Part shown: in pieces, positions 19,446-45,384 of the stretch | Layout of the letters: every line of letters begins with the position of its first letter | Position numbering within the stretch: position 1 is the stretch's first letter | IMG/VR virus record: IMGVR_UViG_3300028888_000047 | Coordinates: 128,001-192,000 of that record | DNA length: 64,000 nucleotides | From: a virus | Taxonomy: Duplodnaviria; Caudoviricetes | Strand: one strand, 5' to 3' | The notes under the pieces: model-generated | What the model was told of the DNA's origin: nothing | Seen by the model: only the letters and a program-made list of their open reading frames with translations | The model's database searches: none | Position numbers and translations under genes: made by a program

Positions 19446-19540
19446 TTAGGGAACATATACGCCTGATTCGAACAGGATAAATCAATTTACAGTTGATTGA
19501 GTAAACCATTCCTCTACTTAAACTTGCTGTGAGTTCCCTT
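19446..19540 (-). ncRNA. ACAGCAA-stem (Y-RNA-like) RNA #1 carrying an acceptor-less tRNA-Tyr mimic
   Basis: AAGGGAAC-TCACAGCAA...GTTCCCTA enclosing a D-arm, ATCAA-CTGTAAA-TTGAT and CCTG-TTCGAAT-CAGG. Confidence 0.8.
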
Positions 19541-19543
19541 GCG

Positions 19544-19632
19544 TTGTGATGGCTGGATTTGAACCAGCGACAGGATTTCACATCCAAACTTCCTTATGAG
19601 AGAAGCGCAATAGACCACTCTGCCACATCACA
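19544..19632 (-). tRNA. tRNA with CAU anticodon and long variable arm
   Basis: TGTGATG/CATCACA acceptor, CTTCT-CTCATAA-GGAAG, V-arm GGAT-GTGAA-ATCC; 5' end overlaps the coaD stop codon. Confidence 0.85.
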
Positions 19633-20101
19633 TTAATTCATTTGCTTTTAATCTTGCATTTTCTCTTTGCTCTCCAGTAACACTTAATAATGACCTCACC
19701 AAAGTGCTACTAATATGAGAATATTCTTTATCGCAAGGAATAAGCACGGTTTGAAGCCCACCAAGCCATTTGTTTGCGTCTGCTTGGGATAATTCATAAT
19801 CCGCATCTGTAGCGTTTCTGATGCCCTTTACAATGTATTTTGCACCACATTTTCTTGCCACATCAGCCACCAATGTATTAGGCGTTGTACAAACGTGTAT
19901 TCTGCCTTGCATTTCAAGTTCATGATACTTGGATTCCAATGTTGCACCAATAGCACGAACTTCAAACATCCTTTTTTTATTTGGGTTAGGTGCAACAAAT
20001 ATCACTACTTCATCAAATAAGTCTAATGCTTTTTCTACAACATGAGCGTGACCTTTTGTAAATGGGTCAAAACTACCCGGAAATATTGCTACTTTTTTCA
20101 T
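19628..20101 (-). CDS. coaD: Phosphopantetheine adenylyltransferase
   Basis: FPGSFDPFTKGH, KGIRNATDADYE, ISSTLVR. Confidence 0.92.
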   Translation of the reverse strand: MKKVAIFPGSFDPFTKGHAHVVEKALDLFDEVVIFVAPNPNKKRMFEVRAIGATLESKYHELEMQGRIHVCTTPNTLVADVARKCGAKYIVKGIRNATDADYELSQADANKWLGGLQTVLIPCDKEYSHISSTLVRSLLSVTGEQRENARLKANELM

Positions 20102-20102
20102 A

Positions 20103-20315
20103 CTATTTCTTCAAAAAATTATATACAACAGCAAAAGGCCAAAAAATCATCAAAAATAAAATCAACATACGAGCCATACCTTCTTCAACACCTTCTTCTG
20201 ATGCTTTGGCTTCTTCGTATTTCTTTGAATAATTTTTCTTCCATAGCCACGTTGCTACAATAACGCCAATAATGAAATAAATCATTATAACTACTGATAT
20301 TACGCTAAAACTCAT
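20103..20315 (-). CDS. Small two-TM membrane protein
   Basis: Two hydrophobic segments. Confidence 0.65.
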   Translation of the reverse strand: MSFSVISVVIMIYFIIGVIVATWLWKKNYSKKYEEAKASEEGVEEGMARMLILFLMIFWPFAVVYNFLKK

Positions 20316-20502
20316 ATAGTATGTTTTTTTATATTAATTTAAAATTGGCTGACTAGTCTTTTCACAGCCAAGTAGCATATACATACTGCCCAAAGCATTT
20401 GCTTTGTTTGGTTCTTCCAAGCAGTTTCTGCCTTTATAGCCTCCCGTTCGCCTAAAGTCGTTATGCCATAGGTTTATCTACTTTGCAGTAGGGCTATATG
20501 AG

Positions 20503-20587
20503 CTCGCCGGGTGCGATTCGAACACACGGTGTCAAAAGACACGGTAGTTTTGGAGACTACTGGGTTAAACCACTCCCCCACCGGCGA
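20503..20587 (-). tRNA. tRNA-Trp(CCA) with long variable arm
   Basis: TCGCCGG/CCGGCGA-G73, GTAGT-CTCCAAA-ACTAC, V-arm GTGTC-TTTT-GACAC. Confidence 0.88.
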
Positions 20588-20841
20588 ATTTTACATTTCC
20601 AAATATTTTTTTAAATCTTGCTTTTTTAAAATTCCAAGGCAACCTTCTCTCATATCGAATCCTTGGCATGTGGTTACAGACCCATCACGTTCAGTTCGCC
20701 AGTTCCCTGATTAAACAGAAATTGCTCTGCAACACTAGTGCTTAACTTCACTGACTCTCGTATGCGTCGCAGAATTGCACTACTCTACACGTGTATGAAG
20801 AACCGACTTTAACAGAACCTTACCTGTGTCATGGTAACGCA

Positions 20842-21321
20842 TTATTTTATAAGTCTATCTACCCTTCTACAAAACATTATTCCTCCAATATAGTTTCCTT
20901 TGAATTTGTATAATCGCTTCAAATCAAATTCTCTATACCCGCCGAAAAAATGTATGTTTTTGTAAACGGACTCTATTATTTGGCAATAATTAATAAAACG
21001 AATTTTTAACGTTTCCCTACAATCTTTTGCCATATGTTCCCCCAAGTCTTCTAACACAATTCTAACATAAACGTTTTGCTTGCTATTCAAATAATTCAGT
21101 ATTTCAAATACAGAAAAAGTTTCATATTCTGTATTACCACATTTGAAAATAGCTTTTCCATTTTTGTTTAAAAAATATAAATGTATGTCAAAAGCCCTGA
21201 TACCGCATTTTTCGTATTGTTCGAATATGCTTACTGTTTGAGCGCGTTTAAGCCAATTAATAATTCTGTCTTTTAGCCTATGCGGTCTCAAATAACTCAT
21301 TGAATGTAATGAACCTACCAT
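20842..21321 (-). CDS. PI-PLC X-domain-like phosphodiesterase
   Basis: GSLHSMSY...AQTVSI.EQY..GIRAFD pattern. Confidence 0.55.
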   Translation of the reverse strand: MVGSLHSMSYLRPHRLKDRIINWLKRAQTVSIFEQYEKCGIRAFDIHLYFLNKNGKAIFKCGNTEYETFSVFEILNYLNSKQNVYVRIVLEDLGEHMAKDCRETLKIRFINYCQIIESVYKNIHFFGGYREFDLKRLYKFKGNYIGGIMFCRRVDRLIK

Positions 21322-21382
21322 AGTCTATCACTTATAAAAGCCTTATTTAAATAAATATTAGACTATGGCAGGAAAATTACGT

Positions 21383-23092: not shown

Positions 23093-23695
23093 TTATTTGA
23101 AATATTTTTTAGTTTCAGTATCAACTTCTTTTATAATTGTTGGTATTCTATAGCAACCTGACATTCTTTTTATTGCTCTAATTAATCCAAAACTACATAA
23201 CAATTTACCATATTTCCCAAAATAAAGGTTAAAACTTGTTATATACAATGGCTTTTTGCTTTCTCCCCTATAACATATGCCATACTCGCTATCGTCACCA
23301 TATAGAGTTTTAGCTATTCCAACAATATTTAATCGTTTTTTTGCCTTTCTTTCAAGATAATGTTTAGCCAATGCCATTCTTAAATGGCACCCCAAACCTC
23401 TTTTTATTGGTCCGGAAACAAATTCGTTTCTTGCTGAAATATATCCCAATTCTTTCAAATAAACATATCCATCAATTATAATGGTGTCAAATTCATTCAA
23501 ATCTATTTGCTTAAGTAGTTCTACTATTCCCGGTAATTCCCTCTTGTAAAATTCACCAGGTATATATTCTGAACCTATTTTTACATCAGCGTATATAAAC
23601 TTTGATGCGTGTTCATCAACCCACTTATTAAATATACCTCCAACAACGTGGCAGATGTTATCCTTATAATATGCATCAATGGCAATTTTCTTCAT
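23093..23695 (-). CDS. nfi: Endonuclease V-like protein
   Basis: AIDAYY, YIPGEFYKRELP, IIDGY, GLG, VGIAK. Confidence 0.8.
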   Translation of the reverse strand: MKKIAIDAYYKDNICHVVGGIFNKWVDEHASKFIYADVKIGSEYIPGEFYKRELPGIVELLKQIDLNEFDTIIIDGYVYLKELGYISARNEFVSGPIKRGLGCHLRMALAKHYLERKAKKRLNIVGIAKTLYGDDSEYGICYRGESKKPLYITSFNLYFGKYGKLLCSFGLIRAIKRMSGCYRIPTIIKEVDTETKKYFK

Positions 23696-25777: not shown

Positions 25778-26026
25778 TTACCCTTTTATCTTAATAAGCG
25801 TATCATCCTCGTTGGCCTTTCTAATCCACCTCATAAGTAGCAGAGCCTTTTCTGTTACATTGAATGAAGCAGATTCGCCAACATCAGATTTGTTACTCAC
25901 ATCTATCTCTAATTGGTATTCAGTATTATCAACTGCAATTATTTTGTATACAGCAATGCCTCCTGCTAAAACAGATTGCAATTGAGCAATACCTTTTACC
26001 AATGGTTTAATGTCCTGCACTATCAT
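25778..26026 (-). CDS. Hypothetical protein
   Basis: ORF track. Confidence 0.6.
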   Translation of the reverse strand: MIVQDIKPLVKGIAQLQSVLAGGIAVYKIIAVDNTEYQLEIDVSNKSDVGESASFNVTEKALLLMRWIRKANEDDTLIKIKG

Positions 26027-26831
26027 TTGTTTCTTTTATTAATGTATTAGCAATATCAATATAATCCTTATTTATTTCAATGCCTATGAAATTTCTATTT
26101 GTCTTAATGGCTGCGATTGCTGTTGTTCCACCTCCCATAAATGGGTCTAACACTATATCACCTTCATTTGACCAAGATAATATATGCCTCAGTGGAAGTT
26201 CAAGAGGAAATACAGCTGGATGCTTTATTTGTTTTTCATTTACCTCAAATAATCTCTTGTTTCGAGCAACTGCCATATCCCATATCTGGTAATCTATCAT
26301 TTTATTACTGACGTGGTAGTTTATCTCTTTTCTACCTTTCTCGCCTCCCATTATCTTAACTGTAGAGGCATATAGTTTACCAGCTGATTTACAAGGTATC
26401 ATTATAGGATTGAATGTCTTAGGCCTCTTACCTTTAACAAAACAAAACATAAACTCAACACATCTTGTATATCTGGGCTGCCTTACCTGTGGCATAGGAT
26501 TCTTCTTCCTCCAAAACATATAATCGTTAAGGCTAAAACCGCATACATCCATAAAGTAAATCGCTTGTCTCATTGATGTACCACTTCTGCTACCGTTTTC
26601 AGTCTTATCGTCAACGTTCCATATAAGAACACCACCATCTTTCAAAACCCTGTATAATTCTCTTGCTATTGCTTCGAATTTATCCTTGCTCCAACAATCT
26701 GTACATACTCCATTGTACGTGCGTAGATTGTCATATGGTGGTGACGTAACGATTAAATCAATTGAGTTATCATCAATTTGTTTCAGCAACTCCTCTGAAT
26801 CGCCACAATAAATATTGTTTAAATCTAACAT
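26007..26831 (-). CDS. N4/N6 DNA methyltransferase (beta class)
   Basis: TSPPY, HPAVFP, DPFMGGGTT. Confidence 0.92.
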   Translation of the reverse strand: MLDLNNIYCGDSEELLKQIDDNSIDLIVTSPPYDNLRTYNGVCTDCWSKDKFEAIARELYRVLKDGGVLIWNVDDKTENGSRSGTSMRQAIYFMDVCGFSLNDYMFWRKKNPMPQVRQPRYTRCVEFMFCFVKGKRPKTFNPIMIPCKSAGKLYASTVKIMGGEKGRKEINYHVSNKMIDYQIWDMAVARNKRLFEVNEKQIKHPAVFPLELPLRHILSWSNEGDIVLDPFMGGGTTAIAAIKTNRNFIGIEINKDYIDIANTLIKETNDSAGH

Positions 26832-27547: not shown

Positions 27548-27744
27548 AAATTCTAGTATAATTATTTTTTTTGGCTTGGTTTTCGCCAGTGTTTTAAGCA
27601 ATTTATGTAAACTAAACATGTTGATGCACTTTCAGCACCATCATACCCACTTGCCTATGGGCGTATTATACTAGAATTTATATTTGGACTACGTATCCTC
27701 TTCAGCTACCAATGTTGGTCAGTAATCTACCAAAAACTATTCAT
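27548..27744 (-). promoter_or_regulatory. Amber-containing leader uORF plus sequestering hairpin (putative translational attenuator)
   Basis: ATG 27744: MNSFW*ITDQHW*LKRIRSPNINSSIIRP* (all three stops TAG); perfect IR 27665-27679 / 27548-27562. Confidence 0.6.
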
Positions 27745-27767
27745 AACTAATAAATATTAAATTATTA

Positions 27768-27843
27768 TGGGGGCAGTGAGGGAATCAAACCCACGTAAAC
27801 AAGTGCCACAAACTTGCGCCTAAGTCTCTCGGCCAACTGTCCC
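27768..27843 (-). tRNA. tRNA-His(GTG), A19-U56 variant
   Basis: G-1 present; CAAGT-TTGTGGC-ACTTG; T-loop TTTGATT. Confidence 0.88.
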
Positions 27844-27847
27844 ATAT

Positions 27848-27890
27848 TTAGGAAACATTTTTTTTCATATCTATTTTTGGCTGTTTCCTT
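27848..27890 (-). ncRNA. ACAGCAA-stem RNA #2 (minimal/degenerate)
   Basis: AAGGAAACAGCC...GTTTCCTA. Confidence 0.5.
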
Positions 27891-27899
27891 GTATTTCAG

Positions 27900-27973
27900 C
27901 GGTCCGTACGGGTAACAATCCCGTCATTTCCGCCGTGACAGGGCGGCGTCTTCATCGTGCAGACCCACGGACC
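27900..27973 (-). tRNA. tRNA-Asp(GTC), non-canonical elbow
   Basis: CCGCC-CTGTCAC-GGCGG; T-loop ATTGTTA. Confidence 0.85.
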
Positions 27974-27980
27974 ATTTTTT

Positions 27981-28028
27981 TTAGGTAACCGTTTGTATAA
28001 CCTTACATTGTTTGCTGTTAGTTACCTT
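27981..28028 (-). ncRNA. ACAGCAA-stem RNA #3
   Basis: AAGGTAAC-TAACAGCAA...GTTACCTAA (compensatory T-A pair). Confidence 0.75.
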
Positions 28029-28032
28029 GTTG

Positions 28033-28105
28033 AGCAGGTTTCTCGATTCGAACGAGTCTTTGATACAGGATTGTATCACGTGCTAAGCCATTACACCAGA
28101 ACCGC
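28033..28105 (-). ncRNA. tRNA-like RNA lacking a normal anticodon loop (Gly-like body)
   Basis: D-arm and T-arm intact; anticodon arm TGATACA-ATCC-TGTATCA (7 bp, 4-nt loop); U73. Confidence 0.65.
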
Positions 28106-28113
28106 AAAAAAAA

Positions 28114-28172
28114 TTAGGAAGCATTTTATATATTACCACAAACCATTAAAAAAACTTGCTGTTAGCTTCCTT
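28114..28172 (-). ncRNA. ACAGCAA-stem RNA #4
   Basis: AAGGAAGC-TAACAGCAA...GCTTCCTAA; cargo contains TTGTGGT (His-loop-like). Confidence 0.75.
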
Positions 28173-28184
28173 GCTTTTTTATAA

Positions 28185-28362
28185 GCGTAGCAGGGTTATC
28201 ACTTTTCACCCAATAGCGACGATTCACACGTTAAACGTATCTGCATACACTAGGACACAGCATTTAGTCCTATCTGCGCACTGAGGCTTTAAGTCCACTC
28301 CGTTTTTGGGGCTTCCTACTAAACAGCAACAAGTGCTGCGTAGAGGAATGACACTTTCTGCT
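28185..28362 (-). ncRNA. Unidentified structured ncRNA
   Basis: Closed by GCAG..GTGTCA / TGATAAC..CTGC; internal TAGGAC...GTCCTA hairpin. Confidence 0.45.
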
Positions 28363-28365
28363 TTG

Positions 28366-28447
28366 TTGCGGGGGTGAGATTTGCACTCACGAACCACATG
28401 GGACCGGCTTATGAGACCGGCGAATTTGACTACTTTTCTACCCCGCT
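28366..28447 (-). tRNA. tRNA-Met(CAT), initiator-like (1:72 mismatch), extended variable region
   Basis: AGCGGGG/CCCCGCA; CCGGT-CTCATAA-GCCGG; T-loop TGCAAAT. Confidence 0.82.
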
Positions 28448-28450
28448 ATA

Positions 28451-28738
28451 TTATTTCAATAATTCTTTTAACTTTTTCAGTTCCTCAATTTTCTTATTGA
28501 TTGATTCGCAATCAAATGTATTTTCAAAATCTTCTTTTACAAGGTTATTTAACAAAACATCAACCTCATGCTTAACATCTTCATACAGTTCAACATAATA
28601 TTTTTGTCCAATAATCTTTTGTGCTTCAACTTTTTCATATCCTGCCTCTACAAGATTTTTATAAAGCTCTTTTCTAAAATCAGCGTCTAAAATTTTTCCC
28701 ATAACTTGTATTTTTAATAAACTAACGCAAATATACAA
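28451..28738 (-). CDS. Hypothetical protein (likely start MGKIL ~28702)
   Basis: Promoter at ~28727 lies within the extended ORF. Confidence 0.6.
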   Translation of the reverse strand: MYICVSLLKIQVMGKILDADFRKELYKNLVEAGYEKVEAQKIIGQKYYVELYEDVKHEVDVLLNNLVKEDFENTFDCESINKKIEELKKLKELLK

Positions 28739-28892
28739 AAAATATTTGTAAAAAAGAAATTTTTAATGAAAAAAAATCCTAAACTCTTCCCCATAGCTTT
28801 CGAACATAGTTAAACTAACTGACCGGCGACACAAAACTTGGAGGCCATCCCAATGAGGTCACGTTGCTTTCAGTGTTAGGGTTTTTTTATTG

Positions 28893-29262
28893 TGGACCTA
28901 GGCGGAGTCGAACCGCCGTCTTGCTCTGCGTTCCATAGAAATTTATACAAGCTTTTAGAGAATTTGGTGAGTGGTTTGCGCCACCCGTCCTCTCTGCCAC
29001 CCTATTTTGAGAAAATAGGGAAAACATGGGGGATGACCGGAATCATCAGTTCCACCATCTTAACGTACAACGTTAAGAAAAAATTACTAGGATGTTCTGT
29101 TCCTAAGAGCCTAGTCTCTCGGCCTATCGCTTACGCAGCCATTGCATAAGCATAAGCAGGAGAATCTACATTCTCGCCGTTTATGTTTTTTTTGCTATTT
29201 CTAGTGTATGCCCACTGCTTGATTTCTACCAAACTACAGCCAATCTATACCATTTTAGGCCC
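28893..29262 (-). ncRNA. ssrA: tmRNA; tag peptide (A)GENVDSPAYAYAMAA
   Basis: GGGCCTA/TAGGTCC-A acceptor with G3.U70; T-arm GGCGG-TTCGACT-CCGCC; resume context ATAAAC-GGC GAG AAT...GCT GCG TAA. Confidence 0.93.
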
Positions 29263-29275
29263 GTTTAATATAAAA

Positions 29276-29354
29276 TAGGGAACTATCTGTTCAACGTTTT
29301 CAAATTTCAAGTCTGATGTTTTAACATAAATAATAACTTGCTGTGAGTTCCCTT
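29276..29354 (-). ncRNA. ACAGCAA-stem RNA #5 carrying a Ser(UGA) anticodon stem-loop
   Basis: AAGGGAAC-TCACAGCAA...TCAGA-CTTGAAA-TTTGA...GTTCCCTA. Confidence 0.78.
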
Positions 29355-29360
29355 GTTTAG

Positions 29361-29435
29361 TGGAGCCAGTGGGGCTCGAACCCACGACCCTCTGAATGCA
29401 AATCAGATGCTCTAGCCAAACTGAGCTATGGCCCC
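29361..29435 (-). tRNA. tRNA-Ala(TGC)
   Basis: G3.U70, loop TTTGCAT. Confidence 0.95.
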
Positions 29436-29485
29436 TTGGAGTGAGGTTTTTAACGGTGGCCTCACGGCGCCGGTATTAAAATACG

Positions 29486-29559
29486 TGGTGCTAGTAGGAC
29501 TCGGACCTACGACCGCTTGAATATCAGTCAAGAACTCTAACCAACTGAGCTATAGCACC
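29486..29559 (-). tRNA. tRNA-Ile(GAT)
   Basis: CTTGA-CTGATAT-TCAAG. Confidence 0.9.
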
Positions 29560-29563
29560 ATTG

Positions 29564-29592
29564 TTAGGAAACCATTTAAATACGTTGCTCTA
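29564..29592 (-). pseudogene. 3' remnant of an ACAGCAA-stem permuted-tRNA RNA (#6)
   Basis: TAGAGCAACG...GTTTCCTAA, matching the 3' end of RNA #7. Confidence 0.45.
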
Positions 29593-29605
29593 TAATATTA
29601 ATTTG

Positions 29606-29679
29606 TGTTGATGGAGGGACTTGAACCCCCGGTCTCAACGGTATCAGCGTTGCGCTTTAACCAACTAAGCTACACCAAC
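29606..29679 (-). tRNA. tRNA-Ile(GAT)
   Basis: CAACG-CTGATAC-CGTTG. Confidence 0.9.
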
Positions 29680-29682
29680 ATT

Positions 29683-29808
29683 TTAGGAAACATTTTATTA
29701 ACGTTGCTCTACCATCTGAGCTAAATGGAAATTTTACTTCCCACTACCGGATTCGAACCGGCGACCCACGGATTACAAATCATTTTCAACTTTGCTGTTA
29801 GTTTCCTT
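29683..29808 (-). ncRNA. ACAGCAA-stem RNA #7: circularly permuted tRNA mimic (YrlA-like architecture, Thr-derived)
   Basis: Order: stem5', TTTGTAA, T-arm (GCCGG-TTCGAAT-CCGGT), acceptor closed by a loop (AGTGGGA..TTCCATT), D-arm (GCTC-AGATGGTA-GAGC), stem3'. Confidence 0.85.
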
Positions 29809-29815
29809 GCTTGTG

Positions 29816-29891
29816 TAGGATATGAGGGATTCGAACCCACGAACCTTCTGGGTGTAAACCAGACGCTCTAAACCAGCTGAGCTAATATCCT
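29816..29891 (-). tRNA. tRNA-Val(TAC)
   Basis: TCTGG-TTTACAC-CCAGA. Confidence 0.92.
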
Positions 29892-30246
29892 ATGCCTCCT
29901 AATGTCCTATTTTATAATCTCCCTAGGAAAAGAGATAACCGTATCAAGGAACGGTGTGCTACTTGTACTTGGCAGTGGCGACATTATAAACCTTATAGTT
30001 TGTCACAGGACCTTTCAAGTTAATACGTAAGTTAAATAAAGTCTTTTTCCTCCCTACTAACAGATGTTCGAATTAACTACTTGGCCGACGTTCGTTAAGA
30101 AAAAGCAAACCTCACTACAAGCAGAGCAATAGCGTATGTAATCATTTCCACGTTTTGAAATCATCTGACGTTTCAATTCTTACCCCTATGATACCTAATG
30201 ACCGATACATTAAATAACCGTTCTAAGTCTGACTCTCTGTGACTTG

Positions 30247-30322
30247 TGGTGGGTAGGACCGGAGTTGAACCAGTTTAGCCGGATTTTCAGTCCGGTGCAT
30301 ACACCACGTCTGCCACCTACCC
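30247..30322 (-). tRNA. tRNA-Phe(GAA), encoded CCA
   Basis: CCGGA-CTGAAAA-TCCGG. Confidence 0.92.
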
Positions 30323-30482
30323 ATTGTTTGTGACGTTTTAATTGGCGGAGTGCGCCACCTTACTCTCCATTTTAGACCAGCTTATCGCTTTGTCCACCAG
30401 CTATAGGCTACTGCGCCTACTGCTGCACCAAAAATAAATGTCAACATAATTTTAAAATACTTTGAATTAAACATATAGTTAA

Positions 30483-30906
30483 CTATAACAATTCATTACC
30501 ACATTTTCTACATTTTTCCATTAGGTCATTAACAAACGTTTTTAACTCTTCATCCGTATCAAACCTATGGAGTTCAGCATCTTTTTGATTTAAAAAGCAT
30601 ATTTTCACTTCGCCTGGGAAATAGAAAAAATCTTTTTCTTCATTGTATCTAGTCCCATGAAAATGATACCTTGCCAAATTTTTAGCAGAACATGGAGAAT
30701 AATCACTGAACTTATATAAATCCTCTGTAACTGTTGTTACCTTTGGTTTTCTAAAGAGCCTTCTTTTAACAATTGTATCTCCTTTTTTATGAACAAGATA
30801 ATTAGAACAATCTCGTATTTTTACAGGAGTCACATCTATCGATGTTATATTCTTATAATATTCCTTGCTTTTGCAAGATAAAGATTCTAAATTTTCTTTT
30901 ATCATA
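30483..30906 (-). CDS. Hypothetical protein (start MIKENL; the track ORF extends into a tRNA)
   Basis: ORF track, trimmed. Confidence 0.6.
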
Positions 30907-30919
30907 ACAATGTATTTTG

Positions 30920-30992
30920 TGCGCCCACTGGGATTCGAACCCAGGACCCCAAGATTAAAAGTCATGTACTCTGCCTGCTGAGCTATAGGCGC
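30920..30992 (-). tRNA. tRNA-Lys(TTT)
   Basis: Loop CTTTTAA. Confidence 0.92.
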
Positions 30993-31011
30993 ATTTTTAG
31001 TAAAAAAATAG

Positions 31012-31083
31012 TGCGCCCGGAGAATTTCGAAATCTCGACCCCATGTTTAAGAGACACGTGCTCTGCCTCTGAGCTACGAGCGC
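31012..31083 (-). tRNA. tRNA-Lys(CTT)
   Basis: Loop CTCTTAA. Confidence 0.9.
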
Positions 31084-31090
31084 AATATTG

Positions 31091-31163
31091 TGCGCCCACT
31101 GGGACTCGAACCCAGGACTCCCACATTAAAAGTGTGGTGCTCTACCAACTGAGCTATGGGTGC
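31091..31163 (-). tRNA. tRNA-Lys(TTT)
   Basis: Loop CTTTTAA. Confidence 0.93.
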
Positions 31164-31266
31164 ATATTTCTACCTTGCTGCACCATAACTCTTCGTAGGT
31201 ACAGCCTAGACCTGTTTATATGACTTTTGTTTTCGTTTCATGACTTTTATATTTTTTAAATTGTTT

Positions 31267-31892: not shown

Positions 31893-32657
31893 TTATATTT
31901 TATCTATGTATTCAACTAATTCTTTTTTCCTCCAAGGTAAATTATTCCTTTCACACCATTTTTGAATCGATTTATCAGACACTCCGTATTTTTTTCCTAC
32001 TTTACCGAATGTTTTTAACTCTTTAAAACTGTCAATAAACTCGTCTTTATTAAGGTTTTCTAATTTTCCTCCTTTACTTTCTACGTATTCTATTCCATTT
32101 TTTTTCAAAAATCTTTTAAGTGTTGTCAGCCCTACTTTATATTTTTTGGATATTTCCTTTTTTGATAGTTTGTTATTTATGTCTTCTTTAATATCTTCTA
32201 CATTTAATTTATTCTTTATTATGAATTTACTTTGTTTTTTTTCTTTTACATTTTTATTTTCGAAATAAACTATACTTCTTTCAATTTCTTCTTGTTCTTT
32301 TTTTGCCCTAACATCTTCTCGTTCTTTAGCATGTAATTCTCTATGGCAATTGGCGCATATTAAAACGCATTTATCTGCTTCCTTTTTTAATTTTTCTAAA
32401 CTTCTTGTATCACCAGCAATACCAAATTCTTTTTCATTAGGGTCAAGATGATGAAATTCCAGTGCGTCAATACACTTGTCATACCCGCATATTTCGCATT
32501 TTCCTCCCTTGTATTCTACAAGCCTAATTTTATTTCTTCTTCTAATGTCTAATACTGCTTCTTTTCTACATTCTTTGCACTTATAACTTCCGTTTTGAAG
32601 TAAAACGTGCTCAGTAACACCATGCCTAGGGCATTCTCTCATTATTGTTCTACTCAT
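31893..32657 (-). CDS. HNH homing-type endonuclease with C-terminal HTH repeats
   Basis: CEICGY...LEFHH...ICANCHRELH; inserted in the tRNA array. Confidence 0.85.
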   Translation of the reverse strand: MSRTIMRECPRHGVTEHVLLQNGSYKCKECRKEAVLDIRRRNKIRLVEYKGGKCEICGYDKCIDALEFHHLDPNEKEFGIAGDTRSLEKLKKEADKCVLICANCHRELHAKEREDVRAKKEQEEIERSIVYFENKNVKEKKQSKFIIKNKLNVEDIKEDINNKLSKKEISKKYKVGLTTLKRFLKKNGIEYVESKGGKLENLNKDEFIDSFKELKTFGKVGKKYGVSDKSIQKWCERNNLPWRKKELVEYIDKI

Positions 32658-33587: not shown

Positions 33588-34511
33588 TTATTTTCCAACA
33601 ATCAACAACTCATGTGAAGTCTTGATATTGTCTTTATCGTAATCTCTTTCTGTTCTTGTTTTGCCTATTCTTGTTTCTCCTTGACCCATTGTATATTGCC
33701 AATGAACCTCGTGTATCTCAAAATCCTTATAAGCCTCTCTTACCATTGAACAATCATTATATGAAAGAATGAAACCACCTTTATGTTCGTGCAATAATTT
33801 GCAAAGTAACTCGTGGTTAAATCCATTGTGATGAATTGGAAAGTTCCTCATGGGATATATTCCCTTAAACATCTTGCTGTCTGCACATTCATCCAACACA
33901 TAAGGAGGGTCAAGATAAAGAAATTCTCCTTGATTCTCAGGTATACTTTCCTCAAATCCTTTGCAATATACTCTTAGATTTGGTAAATGGAAATTTTTAA
34001 CCTTTTCAATAGTTGAGTTATATTTCTTCTCTGATTGATATATTGATGACATCCATCCCAAAAAACCCGGTCCATATGACAATTGCATATTGTAATAGTA
34101 ATAAACAGCAGCGTCTATTGGGTCTAATTTACCATCATATCCATCAGTTTTATTCCAATGTTCTTTCAGTATGTTTTTAACCCTCTCATATTCTTCTTTG
34201 GTTGGAGGCATCGCTGACAGACGTTTGTATAACTCTTCGCCATTAACTGTTTGCTGCTGCCAATAGTTAACCAACAAATCAAAAACATCATACGCAACAA
34301 CCTCAAGCCCCAACTCTTTTGCCAATGCAATTTCAACTGAACCGCCTCCTATAAAAGGGCTTACAACCTTTTTTACGTCTTTAGGTAAATGTTCTGTTAT
34401 TAATCCGACTGCAAGTGATTTACCCCCTGCATATCTTAATGGACTGCCATTATATCTTTTATAATTACCATTCTTTCCCTTTAACAGTTTCTGTAACTCT
34501 TCAATTTGCAT
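33588..34511 (-). CDS. Dam-like DNA adenine methyltransferase
   Basis: YAGGKS, SPFIGGG, DPPY. Confidence 0.92.
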   Translation of the reverse strand: MQIEELQKLLKGKNGNYKRYNGSPLRYAGGKSLAVGLITEHLPKDVKKVVSPFIGGGSVEIALAKELGLEVVAYDVFDLLVNYWQQQTVNGEELYKRLSAMPPTKEEYERVKNILKEHWNKTDGYDGKLDPIDAAVYYYYNMQLSYGPGFLGWMSSIYQSEKKYNSTIEKVKNFHLPNLRVYCKGFEESIPENQGEFLYLDPPYVLDECADSKMFKGIYPMRNFPIHHNGFNHELLCKLLHEHKGGFILSYNDCSMVREAYKDFEIHEVHWQYTMGQGETRIGKTRTERDYDKDNIKTSHELLIVGK

Positions 34512-34993: not shown

Positions 34994-35170
34994 AAAGGAA
35001 CGCCCTTTAAGGTCTTGGGAATGACCGTTACAAGTCAGTTACTTGTTCTTCGCTGCTTGCCTTAATAAGAACGGTGCTTCACGCTCCTTGCGGATTTAAC
35101 GCTTCTCCGTTCTCTCTCCAGTCTGATTAATACGAAATTTATGCTTTATTAATCTTGCTGTACGTTCCTG
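34994..35170 (-). ncRNA. ACAGCAA-stem RNA #8 with long (~145 nt) cargo
   Basis: CAGGAACG-TACAGCAA...CGTTCCTTT. Confidence 0.65.
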
Positions 35171-37553: not shown

Positions 37554-38330
37554 TCATGGATTTATCGTTTCATTTATTCTTTTCAATGAATATTTAACTT
37601 GTTCTTCAGATATTTCACTTCCAACATATATCGGACATTTTTCAGAAAGAATGCATCCTACCGCTGTTGTACCAGTTCCCATAAATGGGTCGTATACGAT
37701 AAAGTCTTTCGAACCAGCATATAGATTTAGTAATTTTACTACTAATTCACTACTGAATGTGGCTTGATTTAACTTATTGGTTTTTTCATCGTTATTTTTA
37801 GCTTCAACAAAGTTATAGAAAACATTGTAATATGTCTGCTTTGTTTTTTCACTAACTGATGCAACTCCTTTATCTATGAAAAAATCGTTAGTCATTCCAT
37901 CCTTTGCAAATACAAACACATATTCCCAAGTTCTACTAAGTCTACATTTGTTTGCCGGAAACGGTAAGCCACTACTTTTTTTCCAACATATAGTATCAAC
38001 CAATCTCCAATTGGTCTTTTCAACTATCTCAGTTACTAACTTATATGGAAGTGCTGGGTTTTCAATGCTATACCCAAAGTTATATAACACAACCCCATTA
38101 TCAACAACAATCCTATTAAATTCATCGAAAACGTTTTTTGTAAATTCTAGGTATTCTTCCTCTGTCTTCCAATCCTTATAGACATCATATCTACCACTAT
38201 CAGCATAACCGCCTTTACGCTTTGTCATATTGTAAGGAGGACTGGTCAATATAAGATTTATAGACTTGTCCTCCATACGTTTCATAGTGTCGAAACAATC
38301 CTCATTGTATATTGCGTTGAACTCAATCAT
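37554..38330 (-). CDS. N4/N6 DNA methyltransferase
   Basis: TSPPY, DPFMGTGTT. Confidence 0.92.
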   Translation of the reverse strand: MIEFNAIYNEDCFDTMKRMEDKSINLILTSPPYNMTKRKGGYADSGRYDVYKDWKTEEEYLEFTKNVFDEFNRIVVDNGVVLYNFGYSIENPALPYKLVTEIVEKTNWRLVDTICWKKSSGLPFPANKCRLSRTWEYVFVFAKDGMTNDFFIDKGVASVSEKTKQTYYNVFYNFVEAKNNDEKTNKLNQATFSSELVVKLLNLYAGSKDFIVYDPFMGTGTTAVGCILSEKCPIYVGSEISEEQVKYSLKRINETINP

Positions 38331-39590: not shown

Positions 39591-40643
39591 TTAAATTGTT
39601 GTTATTTTAACTAAATTTTCTTTAAGTTGTTTTTTAAGTGTTTCTTTTATTTCTTCCAACTGTGATTCATTATTTATTATTTTTGAAAATTCTGTATGTT
39701 CTGTAAGGTTTATTCTATCAGTATGTATGTCTGCACAATAATATTTTATTACATTACCATCCTTATTCCAATCAACATAAACCTCTATTTCTGTATCTTC
39801 AATATCAGGAGTTTTGAATATCCAATTATTGAATTCATCGTCATTATTGAAATCCCAATCCTTGTATACATTTCCATCAGGGGTAATTATAACATCATTG
39901 ATATATGTTTTATTACCCATTTTAACAGATGAAAACATCAATCCTCTATGATATGAAATAATACAATTATCTGCCTCAAAAGTTGAAGAGTGACATACTA
40001 AACAGCCTCCACTTCCACTATACATATATTCTTCGCTGAGAAGAGTTTCAATCTCGTCACGGGCCTTTAATGTTGTTGTATCAAGCTTTGTATAATCAGC
40101 CCTTAGATTTATAAGCCTCTTTTCGCTTCCCCATTTCTTAACAAACTCTTTAAACTCATCAAATGAGAAATTTTTATTGATAACCGTATTAATTCTTATC
40201 GGCTTTTCAATTCTGTCTATTAACTTCAAATCAGCCACGCCACTAAATTCGTGACCAATATGTCTTGATATATTAATACCGTGTATCTTTGGCTCAGAAT
40301 TGATATAATCAATTATTTCATCAATGTTCTTAACCAATGGCAATGTTGTGTTAATAAAACACCTTTTATTCATCGCCGATATAATCCTTTTTGTTTCATC
40401 AAGATTAGCAAAAGGCTCGCCACCGGTTAATACATATTCTACCACATCGTAGTTATTGTTTATTTTATTGATTTGTTCTATAATTTTATTCGGATTTAAT
40501 TTGATGTTCTTATACATCTTCTTTGATGTACAAAAAGGACAATTGTTGTCGCAATCAAATGGAACAAATATAGTACAAGCCAAGTTTCTTCTTCCAACTA
40601 AGTATTTCATATTTAAAAAATTAATATTTGTCCAAAGATACAC
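39591..40643 (-). CDS. Radical SAM enzyme
   Basis: CDNNCPFC, TGGEP, additional GGCLVC. Confidence 0.88.
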   Translation of the reverse strand: MYLWTNINFLNMKYLVGRRNLACTIFVPFDCDNNCPFCTSKKMYKNIKLNPNKIIEQINKINNNYDVVEYVLTGGEPFANLDETKRIISAMNKRCFINTTLPLVKNIDEIIDYINSEPKIHGINISRHIGHEFSGVADLKLIDRIEKPIRINTVINKNFSFDEFKEFVKKWGSEKRLINLRADYTKLDTTTLKARDEIETLLSEEYMYSGSGGCLVCHSSTFEADNCIISYHRGLMFSSVKMGNKTYINDVIITPDGNVYKDWDFNNDDEFNNWIFKTPDIEDTEIEVYVDWNKDGNVIKYYCADIHTDRINLTEHTEFSKIINNESQLEEIKETLKKQLKENLVKITTI

Positions 40644-43052: not shown

Positions 43053-43121
43053 AAGGGAACGCCTATTGAAGTTATCGCAATCAGAAATATGTTACAAATG
43101 TAAAATTTGCTGTACGTTCCC
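43053..43121 (-). ncRNA. ACAGCAA-stem RNA #9
   Basis: GGGAACG-TACAGCAA...CGTTCCC; cargo contains TTTGTAA. Confidence 0.72.
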
Positions 43122-43505: not shown

Positions 43506-43620
43506 AAGGAGTCATTTTAAACCCGATAGTGTTAGATTCGAACCAACGACCTCTTGGTAAAATCCAAGGCTCTAACCAACTGAGCTAACTCCCGCAGTAA
43601 ATTTTGCTGTTAGACTCCTT
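43506..43620 (-). ncRNA. ACAGCAA-stem RNA #10 enclosing a whole tRNA-like cloverleaf with a 6-nt anticodon loop
   Basis: AAGGAGTC-TAACAGCAA...GACTCCTT; D-arm, CTTGG-ATTTTA-CCAAG, T-arm GTTGG-TTCGAAT-CTAAC. Confidence 0.82.
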
Positions 43621-43784: not shown

Positions 43785-43857
43785 TCGGGGTGACAGGACT
43801 CGAACCTGCGACCACATCATCCCAAATGACGCATTCTACCGACTGAACTACACCCCG
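43785..43857 (-). tRNA. tRNA-Pro(TGG)
   Basis: CGGGGTG acceptor, loop TTTGGGA. Confidence 0.93.
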
Positions 43858-43861
43858 AAAA

Positions 43862-43988
43862 TTAGGAAACATTTAAAAATTAGCTGGCGCTCTAAACCTA
43901 CTGAGCTATATGCCGTAGCATAAGTGGATTCGAACCACTGGCCTCCTGCTTGGAACAATTTTTTTAGTTCTTTGCTGTGAGTTTCCTT
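43862..43988 (-). ncRNA. ACAGCAA-stem RNA #11: circularly permuted tRNA mimic (Gly-derived)
   Basis: T-arm AGTGG-TTCGAAT-CCACT, acceptor TATGC-TACG-GCATA (UNCG cap), D-arm GCTC-AGTAGGTTTA-GAGC. Confidence 0.85.
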
Positions 43989-44068
43989 GTTAATATCTAT
44001 GCAAATATACAAAAAAACATTTTAATAACAAAATAATATATGTTAAAAAATGTTAAATTATATCTTAA

Positions 44069-44154
44069 TGGTTGGCGTTGGTGGACTCGAACCACCCGTG
44101 GAATTAACCAGAAGATTTACAGTCTTCCCCGATGCCATCTCCGGTCACACGCCA
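44069..44154 (-). tRNA. tRNA-Tyr(GTA), U1-A72, encoded CCA
   Basis: GAAGA-CTGTAAA-TCTTC, V-arm. Confidence 0.87.
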
Positions 44155-44158
44155 ATGT

Positions 44159-44434
44159 TTATTTTTCTTTTTTAAATCTTTCTATATCATCATTCAGAAT
44201 ACCTTTTCCTCTTTTAAGATAGCTTTCAATTTCAGTTTTTTCTTCAGGAGATATTGTAGCATCTTTAAGCGCCTTTTCAAATGAATCGATGTATGATAGG
44301 CTTTTTTCCGCATCTTCTATTGTCCTTATATTGTCAGAACTAATTAAAGATACAAGGAACATATATTTTACCTGTCTATTTTCACATATCTTATCAATAT
44401 CCTCTCCTGTAATGGTAAATTTTTTCTCTTCCAT
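44159..44434 (-). CDS. Hypothetical protein
   Basis: ORF track. Confidence 0.6.
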   Translation of the reverse strand: MEEKKFTITGEDIDKICENRQVKYMFLVSLISSDNIRTIEDAEKSLSYIDSFEKALKDATISPEEKTEIESYLKRGKGILNDDIERFKKEK

Positions 44435-44460
44435 AACTTGTTTTTTTTTATTTCAAAAAT

Positions 44461-44506
44461 AAGGGAACATTTTTTAAACGTTGTTCTACCAACTGAACTA
44501 CCCCTA
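44461..44506 (-). pseudogene. 3' remnant of a permuted ACAGCAA-stem RNA (#12)
   Basis: D-arm TAGTTCAGTTGGTAGAAC-AACG...GTTCCCTT with no 5' stem. Confidence 0.55.
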
Positions 44507-44511
44507 CATCT

Positions 44512-44982
44512 TTATACTTTCATTTCAACTTCTTCCCACTCTTCTTTTTCTTGCTTATGAATTGGAAAAAGTGTTCTCATTCTTATTAACAATGATAGCC
44601 AATCTCCATTATCTGCGTCAAAGCCAAACTTATCATCAATGCCTATATTGAAATAGAGTTTACCATCATAATTGCCCAATTTATCATTTTGTACCTCCGG
44701 ATTTTCGTTGATATAATCAAACTTAATACCGTTAGCTTTAAACACTTCTATGTATTTGTCTATTTTATCTTTATAAGAAGAAGTCCACAGTATAAGTGAA
44801 ATTTTTTTGTTATTGGTCATAAACTGTAATGCTTCTTTTGCTCCAATAAGCCACTCATATTTTTCTTCTTTTTCGTAACTGGGTCTAAATATTGTGTTAT
44901 GAATATCAACCAACACATATATCTTTTCCCATTTCTTTTCTTTCATACGTTTGTATGCAAAATCTAATGATGTTTCAATCAT
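44512..44982 (-). CDS. HAD-superfamily phosphatase-like protein
   Basis: VDIHNTI, LWTS, IDDK. Confidence 0.7.
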   Translation of the reverse strand: MIETSLDFAYKRMKEKKWEKIYVLVDIHNTIFRPSYEKEEKYEWLIGAKEALQFMTNNKKISLILWTSSYKDKIDKYIEVFKANGIKFDYINENPEVQNDKLGNYDGKLYFNIGIDDKFGFDADNGDWLSLLIRMRTLFPIHKQEKEEWEEVEMKV

Positions 44983-45229
44983 GAATTGTCCAAAGTCTAT
45001 TTGTTAATGGATGCCAATCATCTTTTTCAGTTTGGAAATAATAATAACTTCCATTCACTTCAGATGTATATTCTCCAACATCTACTAATATAGTTTCGCC
45101 ACTATAATTAAAATAACATCCTTTTGAGTTGTCTAATTTCAAAAGTTTAACTGTTGGAAAATCTCTCATATGCAACATTGTGCCACTCTTAAGAGATGGC
45201 CAATCAACTGCTGTAACTTTTGCTGACAT
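44975..45229 (-). CDS. Hypothetical protein
   Basis: ORF track. Confidence 0.55.
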   Translation of the reverse strand: MSAKVTAVDWPSLKSGTMLHMRDFPTVKLLKLDNSKGCYFNYSGETILVDVGEYTSEVNGSYYYFQTEKDDWHPLTNRLWTIHD

Positions 45230-45246
45230 AATAAAAATTAATTTTG

Positions 45247-45318
45247 TAGTCGGTACGAGATTCGAACTCGTATGGCAAGAATGAAAATCTTGAATCCTAG
45301 CCCTTAGATGAACCGACC
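45247..45318 (-). tRNA. tRNA-Glu(TTC)
   Basis: CAAGA-TTTTCAT-TCTTG. Confidence 0.9.
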
Positions 45319-45322
45319 ATTT

Positions 45323-45384
45323 TTAGGAAACTCTTTTTTGGTACGGAATTTGCAGTTCTGTGAAAATTTGCTGTAAGTTTCCTT
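45323..45384 (-). ncRNA. ACAGCAA-stem RNA #13 carrying a Cys(GCA) anticodon stem-loop
   Basis: AAGGAAAC-TTACAGCAA...ACAGAA-CTGCAAA-TTCCGT...GTTTCCTAA. Confidence 0.78.

What the first reader, a model, noticed from the sequence alone, without database searches (positions are those of the whole stretch)
19446..45384. Anticodon-loop payloads: possible decoy panel against host anticodon nucleases
Seen: several ACAGCAA RNAs carry only, or mainly, an anticodon loop. These are Tyr CTGTAAA (#1, with D and T arms but no acceptor), Ser CTTGAAA (#5), Cys CTGCAAA (#13), Thr TTTGTAA (#7, #9), His-like TTGTGGT (#4, weak stem), Gly TTCCAA (#11) and a 6-nt broken loop (#10). Known: PrrC, RloC, VapC, PARIS AriB and retron PtuAB abort infection by cutting tRNAs. 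Inference: these are non-translating decoys or baits that titrate such nucleases or recruit repair enzymes.
Basis: inference. Interest (0 to 1): 0.72.

Follow-up and report, generated by a model that had tools for sequence, protein, structure and literature searches.

The report
Anticodon-displaying handle RNAs in phage
A 317-kb rumen phage hides among its tRNA genes about ten small RNAs that share one clamp-like "handle" and mostly display faithful copies of tRNA anticodon loops that cannot be used for translation. They probably ride on the phage's Ro60-like protein and act in the phage-host fight over tRNAs, but the proposed decoy role is still untested.

Summary
The family is real. Ten RNAs in the window, and one more elsewhere in the genome, are built as a 6-7-bp covarying stem, 2 nt, ACAGCAA, a cargo of 22-153 nt, then the 3' strand of the stem. 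Three of the 13 minus-strand ACAGCAA hits lie in ORFs and are chance.

The anticodon-loop reading holds for:
- Tyr and Ser, with perfect stems;
- Cys, with 4 of 5 pairs, conserved in relatives;
- Thr and Gly, in permuted tRNA bodies with composite stems;
- the conserved 6-nt loop.

It is weak for His and fails for the element at 43107.

The window alone is marginal (P about 0.05). Across phages the signal is strong. 45 of 118 short cargos carry a 5-bp stem with a 7-nt YU-NNN-R loop, against 5.0 expected, and 35 of 42 comparable loops match a real tRNA loop. Near-identical orthologs differ only in the anticodon.

The DUF2828 protein folds like Ro60 and co-occurs with the handle. So these are Y-RNA-like RNAs that display anticodons.

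The decoy function is plausible but not shown. The phage also has RtcB, Rnl ligases and a CCA enzyme.

This scan already noted the same handle system in at least 70 other genomes. I found no paper or Rfam family for it.

The parts
19449..19538 (-). Handle RNA E1. The handle is GGGAAC-TC-ACAGCAA ... GTTCCC. The cargo (69 nt) is an acceptor-less tRNA body with D arm, T arm and a perfect Tyr anticodon arm (ATCAA/CTGTAAA/TTGAT). It is the last gene before an intrinsic terminator.
   Evidence: Rfam tRNA 41.9 bits; orthologs keep the body but carry AAA, TAA, GCA or TGA anticodons
27851..27888 (-). Handle-like variant E2. It has a GGAAAC ... GTTTCC stem and the same CAAGG/TAA flanks but no ACAGCAA. 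The cargo is short and A-rich.
27984..28026 (-). Handle RNA E3 (stem GGTAAC). The 22-nt cargo has no anticodon-like hairpin.
28117..28170 (-). Handle RNA E4 (stem GGAAGC). The 33-nt cargo has a His-like loop TTGTGGT on a weak 4-of-5 stem.
29278..29352 (-). Handle RNA E5 (stem GGGAAC). The 54-nt cargo has a perfect Ser(UGA) anticodon arm, TCAGA/CTTGAAA/TTTGA. Orthologs carry GCA or TGG in the same stem.
29686..29806 (-). Handle RNA E6 (stem GGAAAC). The cargo is a circularly permuted tRNA-Thr-like body with a capped acceptor. Its TTTGTAA loop is closed by a composite anticodon stem. It matches the tRNA-like core of Rfam YrlA.
   Evidence: (YrlA 38.2 bits, below the gathering score of 69)
34996..35169 (-). 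Handle RNA E7 (7-8-bp stem AGGAACG). The 153-nt structured cargo is of unknown kind: no Rfam match and no anticodon arm found.
43055..43121 (-). Handle RNA E8 (stem GGGAACG). The 46-nt cargo contains TTTGTAA, but not in a hairpin loop. The 3' part of the cargo is conserved in orthologs.
43508..43618 (-). Handle RNA E9 (stem GGAGTC). The cargo is a near-complete tRNA in normal order with a conserved 6-nt anticodon loop, ATTTTA.
   Evidence: (Rfam tRNA 41 bits)
43865..43986 (-). Handle RNA E10 (stem GGAAAC). The cargo is a permuted, capped tRNA-Gly-like body with GTTCCAA at loop positions 32-38.
   Evidence: (YrlA 25.8 bits)
45326..45382 (-). Handle RNA E11 (stem GGAAAC). The 36-nt cargo is a Cys anticodon arm, CAGAA/CTGCAAA/TTCCG, with a conserved A.C mismatch. 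A Bacteroidota-type promoter lies upstream.
56574..58178 (-). DUF2828 + DUF7788 protein (534 aa). It is predicted to fold like Ro60 (TROVE ring plus vWA domain) and is the presumed protein partner of the handle.
44073..44154 (-). Genuine class II tRNA-Tyr(GUA) with a CCA end, given for comparison. ARAGORN missed it.
   Evidence: (tRNA-Sec model 32 bits)

Best explanation
The ACAGCAA RNAs are a Y-RNA-like family of handle-tagged, non-translating tRNA mimics, made from inside the phage's tRNA operons.

The handle is a short helix whose sequence is free but always pairs. It is followed by an invariant single-stranded ACAGCAA and faces an A-rich 3' linker. It is most likely the docking site of the phage's Ro60-like DUF2828 protein (inferred).

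The cargo is a tRNA-derived module of graded completeness: a bare anticodon stem-loop, an acceptor-less tRNA body, or a permuted body with a capped acceptor. Nearly all cargos keep a faithful 7-nt anticodon loop (shown). The anticodon triplet is the exchangeable specificity element (shown by switches between near-identical orthologs).

The particle therefore presents anticodon loops that cannot enter translation. Most likely they serve as baits for proteins that recognise anticodon loops. I rank first the tRNA-targeting toxins and defence nucleases of the host or of competitors. The baits would either soak these up or couple the damage to the phage's own RNA-repair enzymes (inferred, untested).
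For: Handle is real:
- 54 of 63 GG-N6-ACAGCAA sites in ten phage genomes are closed by a perfect 6-bp complement downstream. Controls give 12-13.
- 22 stem sequences occur. The motif is strand-biased and far above its reversed control.

Protein partner:
- The AF2 model (pLDDT 77) has Ro60/TROVE structures as its top 12 listed Foldseek hits over the full length, including the Thermus phage Ro60.
- A homolog is present in 9 of 10 large contigs that bear the handle, at 32-80% identity. It is absent from 4 of 4 contigs that were chance hits.
- Handles beside 80 DUF2828 loci number 16, all on the gene's strand, against 0-4 for scrambled motifs. Loci with homologs at 23-45% identity show further same-strand ACAGCAA hits closed by unrelated stems, under a looser criterion with a high background.

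Anticodon display:
- 45 of 118 distinct short cargos have a perfect 5-bp stem with a YU-NNN-R loop, against 5.0 +/- 2.2 in shuffles.
- After clustering, 33 of 96 do, against 3.0.
- Only 7-nt loops are enriched.
- 35 of 42 loops are identical to a genuine tRNA loop of the same anticodon, including G37 for Pro.
- Permuted bodies keep the loop at positions 32-38, closed by a covarying composite stem (99.6% of cells paired, 0 of 500 shuffles as good).

Anticodon switching: L013/L099, L124/L126 and window/L008 differ by 2-3 nt, and 2 of these lie in the triplet each time. The E1 class carries five different anticodons on one body.

Context: the phage encodes RtcB, two Rnl-family ligases, a CCA-adding enzyme and TyrRS. 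Ro60/Y RNA sits in the Salmonella RtcB repair operon (PMC7790460, PMC4201824).
Against: - No binding, cleavage or expression data exist. The only hint of expression is a sheep-gut metatranscriptome run that holds 99% of the sampled words of a 3.5-kb stretch, and this could be carried-over DNA.
- Single-sequence folding gives no support. Z-scores run from -0.2 to -1.9, and the Ser and Cys hairpins are not in the minimum-energy fold.
- About 60% of short cargos have no perfect anticodon-type hairpin. In the window, E3, E7 and E8 have none.
- The DUF2828 gene lies 11-37 kb from the RNAs here, not beside them. The co-occurrence test is confounded by phage relatedness and genome size.
- The anticodon set includes Lys, Tyr, Asp and His, which from my own knowledge are targets of PrrC, PARIS, PtuAB and colicin E5 (no paper read for this). 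It also includes Ser, Cys, Pro, Thr, Gly and Ile, and lacks Glu, Gln and Arg, which are classic targets. The match to known nucleases is therefore partial.
- Most near-identical ortholog pairs (7 of 11) keep their anticodon.
Confidence: 0.45

Rival explanations
1. Adaptor or repair platform, not a decoy. As Y RNA tethers Ro60 to PNPase, the tRNA-like or anticodon cargo recruits tRNA-handling enzymes to the Ro60-like ring. These could be RtcB or Rnl ligases, the CCA enzyme, or modification enzymes. Alternatively the cargo gates the ring, so that damaged tRNAs are repaired or degraded.
For: The Ro60 fold of the partner. The known tether and gate roles of Y RNAs, and the RYPER-like complex of a phage Ro60 with host PNPase (PMC12135203, PMC4201824). 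RtcB, Rnl and CCA enzyme genes in the same genome region. Jumbo-phage TROVE proteins have already been proposed as a repair platform with a tRNA-like partner (PMC7824862).
Against: A general adaptor does not obviously need many different anticodons, nor anticodon switches between close relatives. Bare anticodon arms lack the elbow that most tRNA-handling enzymes grip.
Confidence: 0.25
2. Sponges or substrates for enzymes that modify the anticodon loop, or for the anticodon-binding domains of aminoacyl-tRNA synthetases. Examples are MiaA at A36-A37-A38, TrmD at G37, Tgt at G34, and the t6A enzymes. The effect would be to reshape host tRNA modification or charging during infection.
For: The loops copy identity-specific positions 32, 37 and 38 exactly. 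Many carry A36-A37-A38 (Cys, Tyr, Ser) or G36-G37 (Pro), which from my own knowledge are the determinants of MiaA and TrmD. Bacterial YrlA is itself modified by tRNA enzymes (PMC4201824).
Against: No such phage strategy is known. SerRS ignores the anticodon, yet Ser arms are common. The link to a Ro60-like protein is left unexplained.
Confidence: 0.1
3. Precursors of working tRNAs. The handle would be a processing signal that is cut out, the ends would be ligated (RtcB), and the acceptor cap would be opened, as happens with permuted tRNA genes of red algae.
For: Permuted order of E6 and E10. The phage encodes RtcB and a CCA-adding enzyme.
Against: The flank entering the loop pairs with positions 39-40 and covaries (GA/TC, GG/CC, GC/GC). 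The transcribed chain is therefore part of the final fold. The acceptor stems covary freely, are rich in G.U pairs and show no conserved identity elements. Bare anticodon arms and acceptor-less bodies can never become tRNAs. A normal tRNA gene exists for every anticodon concerned.
Confidence: 0.05
4. Codon- or anticodon-specific regulators. The displayed loop would pair with codons on mRNA or the ribosomal decoding site, or kiss complementary anticodons, to tune translation of particular codons.
For: Selection acts on the triplet itself. The phage has leader-peptide attenuators in front of its tRNA operons (an earlier scan note, not tested here).
Against: No complementary target was found or sought systematically. 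A 60-kDa ring on the stem would hinder entry to the ribosome.
Confidence: 0.05
5. Decayed tRNA fragments or recombination scars with no function of their own.
For: Two truncated copies of handle 3' ends lie in the array. Homing endonuclease and methylase genes are interspersed.
Against: Conservation across phages whose partner protein has diverged to 32% identity or less. Covariation, an invariant ACAGCAA, strand bias, and exact loop mimicry.
Confidence: 0.03

Closest known systems
YrlA-type bacterial and mycobacteriophage Y RNAs with Ro60/Rsr (Rfam RF02553; Chen et al. 2014, PMC4201824)
   Same: The 5' and 3' ends pair into a stem that carries the protein site. The module is tRNA-like, with a T arm, a D arm and an acceptor closed by a loop, in permuted order. 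The partner is a ring protein of the Ro60 fold with a vWA domain. Several RNAs occur per genome, and there is a link to RtcB repair genes. E6 and E10 hit the YrlA model core.
   Different: The scores (38 and 26 bits) are far below the gathering score of 69. The protein-binding helix is replaced by a different handle (free helix plus ACAGCAA). The partner is DUF2828, which has no sequence match to solved Ro60 structures. The anticodon loop is retained, whereas the YrlA model used here has none. There are also bare anticodon-arm and acceptor-less versions, up to 11 genes per genome, inside tRNA operons and not beside the protein gene.
Deinococcus radiodurans Yrn1 Y RNA
   Same: Chen et al. model it with T- and D-like arms and an 'anticodon arm' of 5 bp with a 6-nt loop, with the Ro stem at the acceptor position (PMC4201824). 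This is the topology of E1 and E9, and E9 has a conserved 6-nt loop.
   Different: Different handle and protein family. In Yrn1 there is no panel of anticodons.
Thermus phage phiLo Ro60 with Yrl1/Yrl2 (PMC12135203; PDB 9KOP, 9L5Y)
   Same: A phage-encoded Ro60-fold protein with phage-encoded Y-like RNAs, proposed to subvert host RNA machinery. It is the best structural match of the DUF2828 model.
   Different: Its RNAs have the canonical stem-bulge with a CGAA motif and no anticodon mimicry. It has two RNAs next to the gene.
Phage answers to tRNA-targeting defence: extra or variant phage tRNAs, and T4 Pnk/Rnl1 repair of PrrC cuts (from my own knowledge and an earlier scan note)
   Same: The same conflict is presumed. 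This phage also carries a full tRNA set and repair enzymes.
   Different: Those answers replace or mend tRNA. A non-translating anticodon bait on a protein handle has not been described in the papers I could search.

Membership tests
Y RNA / YrlA (RF02553) | Match to the family covariance model at or above its gathering score (69 bits) | tested here: not met
   E6 scores 38.2 bits and E10 25.8 bits. The other eight elements give no match.
Y RNA / YrlA (RF02553) | The 5' and 3' ends form a closing stem | tested here: met
   All ten elements have it. 54 of 63 sites in ten genomes close, against 12-13 in controls. 22 stem sequences occur.
Y RNA / YrlA (RF02553) | tRNA-like domain with T arm, D arm and capped acceptor | tested here: met
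   Met for E6 and E10 only, with covariation in the T and acceptor helices. E1 and E9 have the Yrn1-like topology. The other six elements lack it.
Y RNA / YrlA (RF02553) | Canonical Ro-binding bulged helix or conserved motif | tested here: not met
   The handle is a sequence-free helix plus ACAGCAA. It does not align to the outer helices of the YrlA model.
Y RNA / YrlA (RF02553) | Bound by a Ro60-family protein | not testable with these tools
   Indirect evidence only: the Ro60 fold of DUF2828 and co-occurrence.
Ro60 / TROVE protein family (for the DUF2828 ORF) | HEAT-repeat ring plus C-terminal vWA domain | tested here: met
   The top 12 listed Foldseek hits are Ro60/TROVE chains over 500-600 columns, with TM 0.36-0.57 and E from 7e-6 to 2e-3. 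vWA-only hits follow. There is no sequence-level match to the PDB. Pfam gives DUF7788 and a weak DUF2828 hit.
tRNA (RF00005) | Cloverleaf above the gathering score, with a free acceptor end and a 7-nt anticodon loop | tested here: not met
   E1 (41.9 bits) and E9 (41 bits) pass the score. But E1's acceptor pairs only 5 of 7, E9 has a 6-nt loop, and both are locked inside the handle with no exposed 3' end.
   45 of 118 against 5.0 +/- 2.2. After clustering, 33 of 96 against 3.0.
   Needs experiments.

The most novel reading that the evidence does not exclude
Phages carry a programmable anti-defence particle. A Ro60-like ring is loaded with interchangeable anticodon-loop baits. Their triplets are swapped during evolution to match whichever tRNA-targeting nuclease or toxin the current host or competitors deploy. 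This would be an RNA-based, anticodon-specific counter-defence with no described precedent.
Probability: 0.3. Interest if true: 0.88.

Novelty: new variant of a known kind. Interest (0 to 1): 0.72.

Why it matters
Cutting or modifying tRNA anticodon loops is a widespread way for bacteria to stop phages and rivals. The known phage answers are spare tRNAs and repair enzymes. A family of abundant, uncatalogued RNAs would add a third kind of answer. These RNAs display exact anticodon loops on a protein handle, and the anticodon itself is the part that changes between close relatives. The family would also extend the Ro60/Y-RNA world to a second protein family (DUF2828) found in many large phages. 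It gives a concrete, testable function for Y-RNA-like tRNA mimicry, which has been an open question since 2014. It also warns annotators: ARAGORN and Rfam call two of these RNAs tRNAs.

Tried and rejected
- A profile search of the DUF2828 alignment against PDB sequences found nothing. Only the fold comparison shows Ro60.
- Single-sequence folding is not informative for these AU-rich RNAs.
- The scan of bacterial genomes with the GGAAAC handle pattern returned 120 loci, but about 130 are expected by chance at that pattern length. Only one locus, L329 from a cyanobacterial MAG, has four tandem handles. No host or bacterial distribution can be claimed from this scan.
- By my own estimate of collection size, roughly ten of the 51 viral matches may also be chance. 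This only dilutes the enrichment.
- Single-linkage clustering at 60% identity lumped 100 AT-rich cargos together and was discarded. Thresholds of 80% and 70% were used instead.
- An anticodon tally that counted T loops as Ser(CGA) was wrong and was redone.
- RNAalifold pairs GCAA of the handle with UUGU of the Thr loop. All columns are invariant and the pairing cannot hold for other anticodons, so I did not adopt it.
- The reading of E6 and E10 as permuted genes for working tRNAs was considered and ranked low. See the rival explanations.
- Paper searches for DUF2828, ACAGCAA, phage Y RNAs, anticodon decoys and tRNA mimics found no description of this family.

Full report
WHAT IS THERE

The window is bases 128001-192000 of a 317-kb phage record. 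It is AT-rich, and all genes run on the minus strand. It holds a large tRNA array, a tmRNA and an amber-suppressor tRNA.

ACAGCAA occurs 27 times against 11.4 expected. Reading the minus strand at each hit shows one fixed architecture at ten places. A helix of 6-7 bp is usually preceded by CAA. Then come 2 nt, ACAGCAA and a cargo of 22-153 nt. The complementary strand follows, then TAA or T. The helix sequence differs between copies but always pairs: GGGAAC, GGTAAC, GGAAGC, GGAAAC, GGAGTC.

One further copy lies elsewhere in the genome. One look-alike at 27851-27888 has the stem and flanks but no ACAGCAA.

The elements follow tRNA genes by 6-8 nt. E1 is followed by a terminator, and E10 and E11 have Bacteroidota-type promoters upstream. 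They are therefore made as parts of tRNA operons. This last point is read from the sequence and not measured.

IS THE HANDLE REAL BEYOND THIS WINDOW

A pattern scan of viral contigs brought many phages with several copies each. I then ran a test that does not presuppose pairing. Of 63 distinct GG-N6-ACAGCAA sites in ten large phage genomes, 54 are closed by a perfect 6-bp complement within 260 nt downstream. With the stem reversed the count is 12. Looking upstream instead gives 13. With stems swapped among sites, 25% close.

The motif is strongly strand-biased and far above its reversed control. Across 194 distinct elements there are more than 20 stem sequences. A-A precedes the stem, and an A-rich run precedes its 3' strand.

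THE PROTEIN

The ORF at 56574-58178 matches Pfam DUF7788 and, weakly, DUF2828. It has more than 1,400 relatives. A profile search finds no solved relative by sequence. Its AlphaFold model has mean pLDDT 77, and its top 12 listed Foldseek matches are Ro60/TROVE structures over the full length. They include frog and human Ro60, Deinococcus Rsr and the Ro60 of Thermus phage phiLo. vWA-only proteins come after these.

Nine of ten large contigs that carry the handle encode a homolog, at 32-80% identity. The exception is only 37% complete. None of four complete contigs of about 100 kb that matched the pattern by chance encode one.

I also started from the protein. Within 10 kb of 80 homologs there are 16 GG-type handles, all on the gene's strand, against 0-4 for scrambled motifs. 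Loci whose protein is only 23-45% identical show further same-strand ACAGCAA hits closed by quite different stems, such as GACTTC, GAACGC and AGGCCA. That looser criterion has a high background (80 hits against 21-50 for scrambled motifs), and a few listed hits sit in coding-like sequence.

This supports a cognate protein-RNA pair. It does not prove one: relatedness and genome size confound the tally, and in this phage the gene is 11-37 kb from the RNAs.

THE CARGOS

Two elements, E6 and E10, match the tRNA-like core of the Rfam Y-RNA family YrlA at 38 and 26 bits, below the gathering score of 69. The order is T arm, loop-capped acceptor, D arm.

Unlike YrlA they keep an anticodon loop. Counting back from the T arm, TTTGTAA (Thr) and GTTCCAA (Gly) occupy exactly positions 32-38. 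In the Thr type the anticodon stem is composite. Two pairs are made by the strand coming from the handle, and three by the strand after the D arm. On ten phages this structure is 99.6% paired. Both sub-helices are 100% paired with compensatory changes (A-U, C-G and G-C in one; C-G and A-U in the other). No shuffle of 500 and no slid register comes close.

E1 and E9 have the other topology, with the handle in place of the acceptor. E1 has D and T arms and a perfect Tyr arm. E9 is a near-complete tRNA whose 6-nt loop ATTTTA is identical in a relative.

E5 carries a perfect Ser(UGA) arm. E11 carries a Cys arm with one A.C mismatch, and three other phages keep both the mismatch and GCA. E4 has a His-like loop on a weak stem. 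E3, E7 and E8 have no anticodon arm. The TTTGTAA of E8 is drawn into a different small hairpin and is not conserved.

MORE THAN CHANCE?

In the window alone the answer is only marginal. Two of ten cargos have a perfect anticodon-type hairpin (P=0.049). Five heptamers equal anticodon loops of the phage's own tRNAs, against 1.9 expected (P=0.045). Single-sequence folding gives no support.

The comparative data decide it:
- Of 118 distinct short cargos (70 nt or less), 45 have a perfect 5-bp stem closing a 7-nt loop of the form Y-U-NNN-R-N. Dinucleotide shuffles give 5.0 +/- 2.2, with a maximum of 11 in 300.
- With one representative per 80% cluster the count is 33 of 96 against 3.0. At 70% it is 15 of 64 against 1.7.
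- Hairpins with loops of 3-6 or 8-10 nt are not enriched.
- 35 of 42 comparable loops are heptamer-identical to the loop of a genuine tRNA gene with the same anticodon in these loci. This includes G37 in Pro loops.
- In this phage, four of six handle-RNA loops equal the loop of its own tRNA, and two match at 6 of 7 positions, while the stems differ.

THE ANTICODON IS THE VARIABLE PART

Three pairs of near-identical orthologs differ by two or three bases, two of which lie in the triplet:
- TAT against TGA (L013/L099);
- GCT against GTA (L124/L126);
- TGA against GCA (window E5/L008).

The first two have hypergeometric P of about 0.003 each; for the third I computed about 0.006 by hand from the and sequences, because the script picked a different loop for that pair. 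Seven other near-identical pairs keep their anticodon. A third ortholog of E5 has TGG in the same stem.

The acceptor-less E1 class keeps one body but carries GTA, AAA, TAA, GCA or TGA.

The displayed identities are a restricted set: Thr, Lys, Ile, Ser, Gly, Cys, Pro, Tyr and Asp. Leu, Met, Arg, Glu, Gln and Ala are nearly absent, although they dominate the ordinary tRNA genes of the same loci. These counts are not phylogenetically independent.

FUNCTION

Shown:
- The RNAs are conserved, structured and non-chargeable.
- They display faithful anticodon loops on a common handle.
- The handle travels with a Ro60-fold protein.

Inferred: the handle binds that protein, and the loop is offered to something that reads anticodon loops.

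The phage also encodes RtcB, two Rnl-family ligases, a CCA-adding enzyme and TyrRS. It has a normal tRNA gene for every displayed anticodon. It therefore invests heavily in keeping tRNAs working.

In bacteria Ro60 and Y RNAs sit with RtcB in an operon switched on by damaged tRNAs (PMC7790460). A phage Ro60 with its own Y-like RNAs binds host PNPase (PMC12135203). Jumbo-phage TROVE proteins were proposed as a repair platform with a tRNA-like partner (PMC7824862).

I rank the bait or decoy reading first, because switching of the triplet is what an arms race over a sequence-specific enemy predicts. An adaptor or repair role is nearly as good. Nothing here shows that the partner is a nuclease.

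KNOWN OR NEW

Rfam has no family for the handle. My paper searches found nothing on it. Earlier agents of this scan reported the same handle with a DUF2828 gene in at least 70 other genomes, and one member elsewhere in this genome. Those notes agree with my independent tests.

What this report adds:
- a test of the anticodon-loop claim itself;
- exact mimicry of real tRNA loops;
- the composite stem of the permuted type;
- the anticodon switches.

I class the family as a new variant of the Ro60/Y-RNA kind.

Noticed in passing
window 44073-44154 (-): A genuine class II tRNA-Tyr(GUA) with a long variable arm and an encoded CCA end. ARAGORN does not call it, and Rfam reports it only as a weak tRNA-Sec hit (32 bits). 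ARAGORN's 'tRNA-Tyr' at 19454-19523 is in fact the handle RNA E1.
   Followed up: partly
window 29562-29600 (-) and 44465-44510 (-): Two orphan copies of the 3' end of a permuted handle RNA: D-arm 3' half, ACG, A-rich linker, then GTTTCC or GTTCCC and TAA. One follows tRNA-Ile and duplicates the end of E6. The other abuts the stop codon of an ORF. They may be recombination scars or alternative closing strands.
   Followed up: no
window 28170-28345 (-): The roughly 190-nt spacer between tRNA-Met and E4 contains TTGCTGT, the exact complement of ACAGCAA. Six bases later comes a second GGAAGC that could pair with E4's closing strand. This may be an alternative structure or a larger RNA.
   Followed up: no
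alignment A2 (E6 orthologs), columns 12-15 with 41-44: RNAalifold pairs GCAA of the handle with UUGU of the Thr loop in all ten sequences. More generally, ACAG and CAA within the handle are complementary to the CUGU and UUG starts of many anticodon loops. All columns are invariant, so the pairing is untestable here.
   Followed up: no
L329 (Chroococcidiopsis MAG contig, genome contigs): Four tandem closed ACAGCAA handles on one strand in a cyanobacterial assembly: GGAAAC, GGAAGC, GGAAAC, GGAACC. The system may reach beyond phages of Bacteroidota, or this may be a prophage.
   Followed up: no
window 23093-23695 (-), 39591-40643 (-), 336-1766 (-), 3609-5066 (-): An Endonuclease V-like ORF, a radical-SAM ORF, a CCA-adding enzyme and a metallophosphoesterase lie around the array. 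DNA methylases (26007-26831, 33588-34511, 37554-38330) and an HNH ORF (31893-32657) sit between tRNA genes.
   Followed up: partly
window 27700-31200: Two sheep-gut metatranscriptome runs of one sample hold 99% and 57% of the sampled words of this stretch, and one DNA run holds 97%. This is consistent with a rumen phage and possibly with transcription.
   Followed up: partly
L281 and L282 (viral contigs, near distant DUF2828 homologs): Two close relatives carry the same handle RNA, with the loop CTGTAAA in one and CTGTTAA in the other. This is a Tyr to Asn change by one base in the triplet, a further possible anticodon switch.
   Followed up: no
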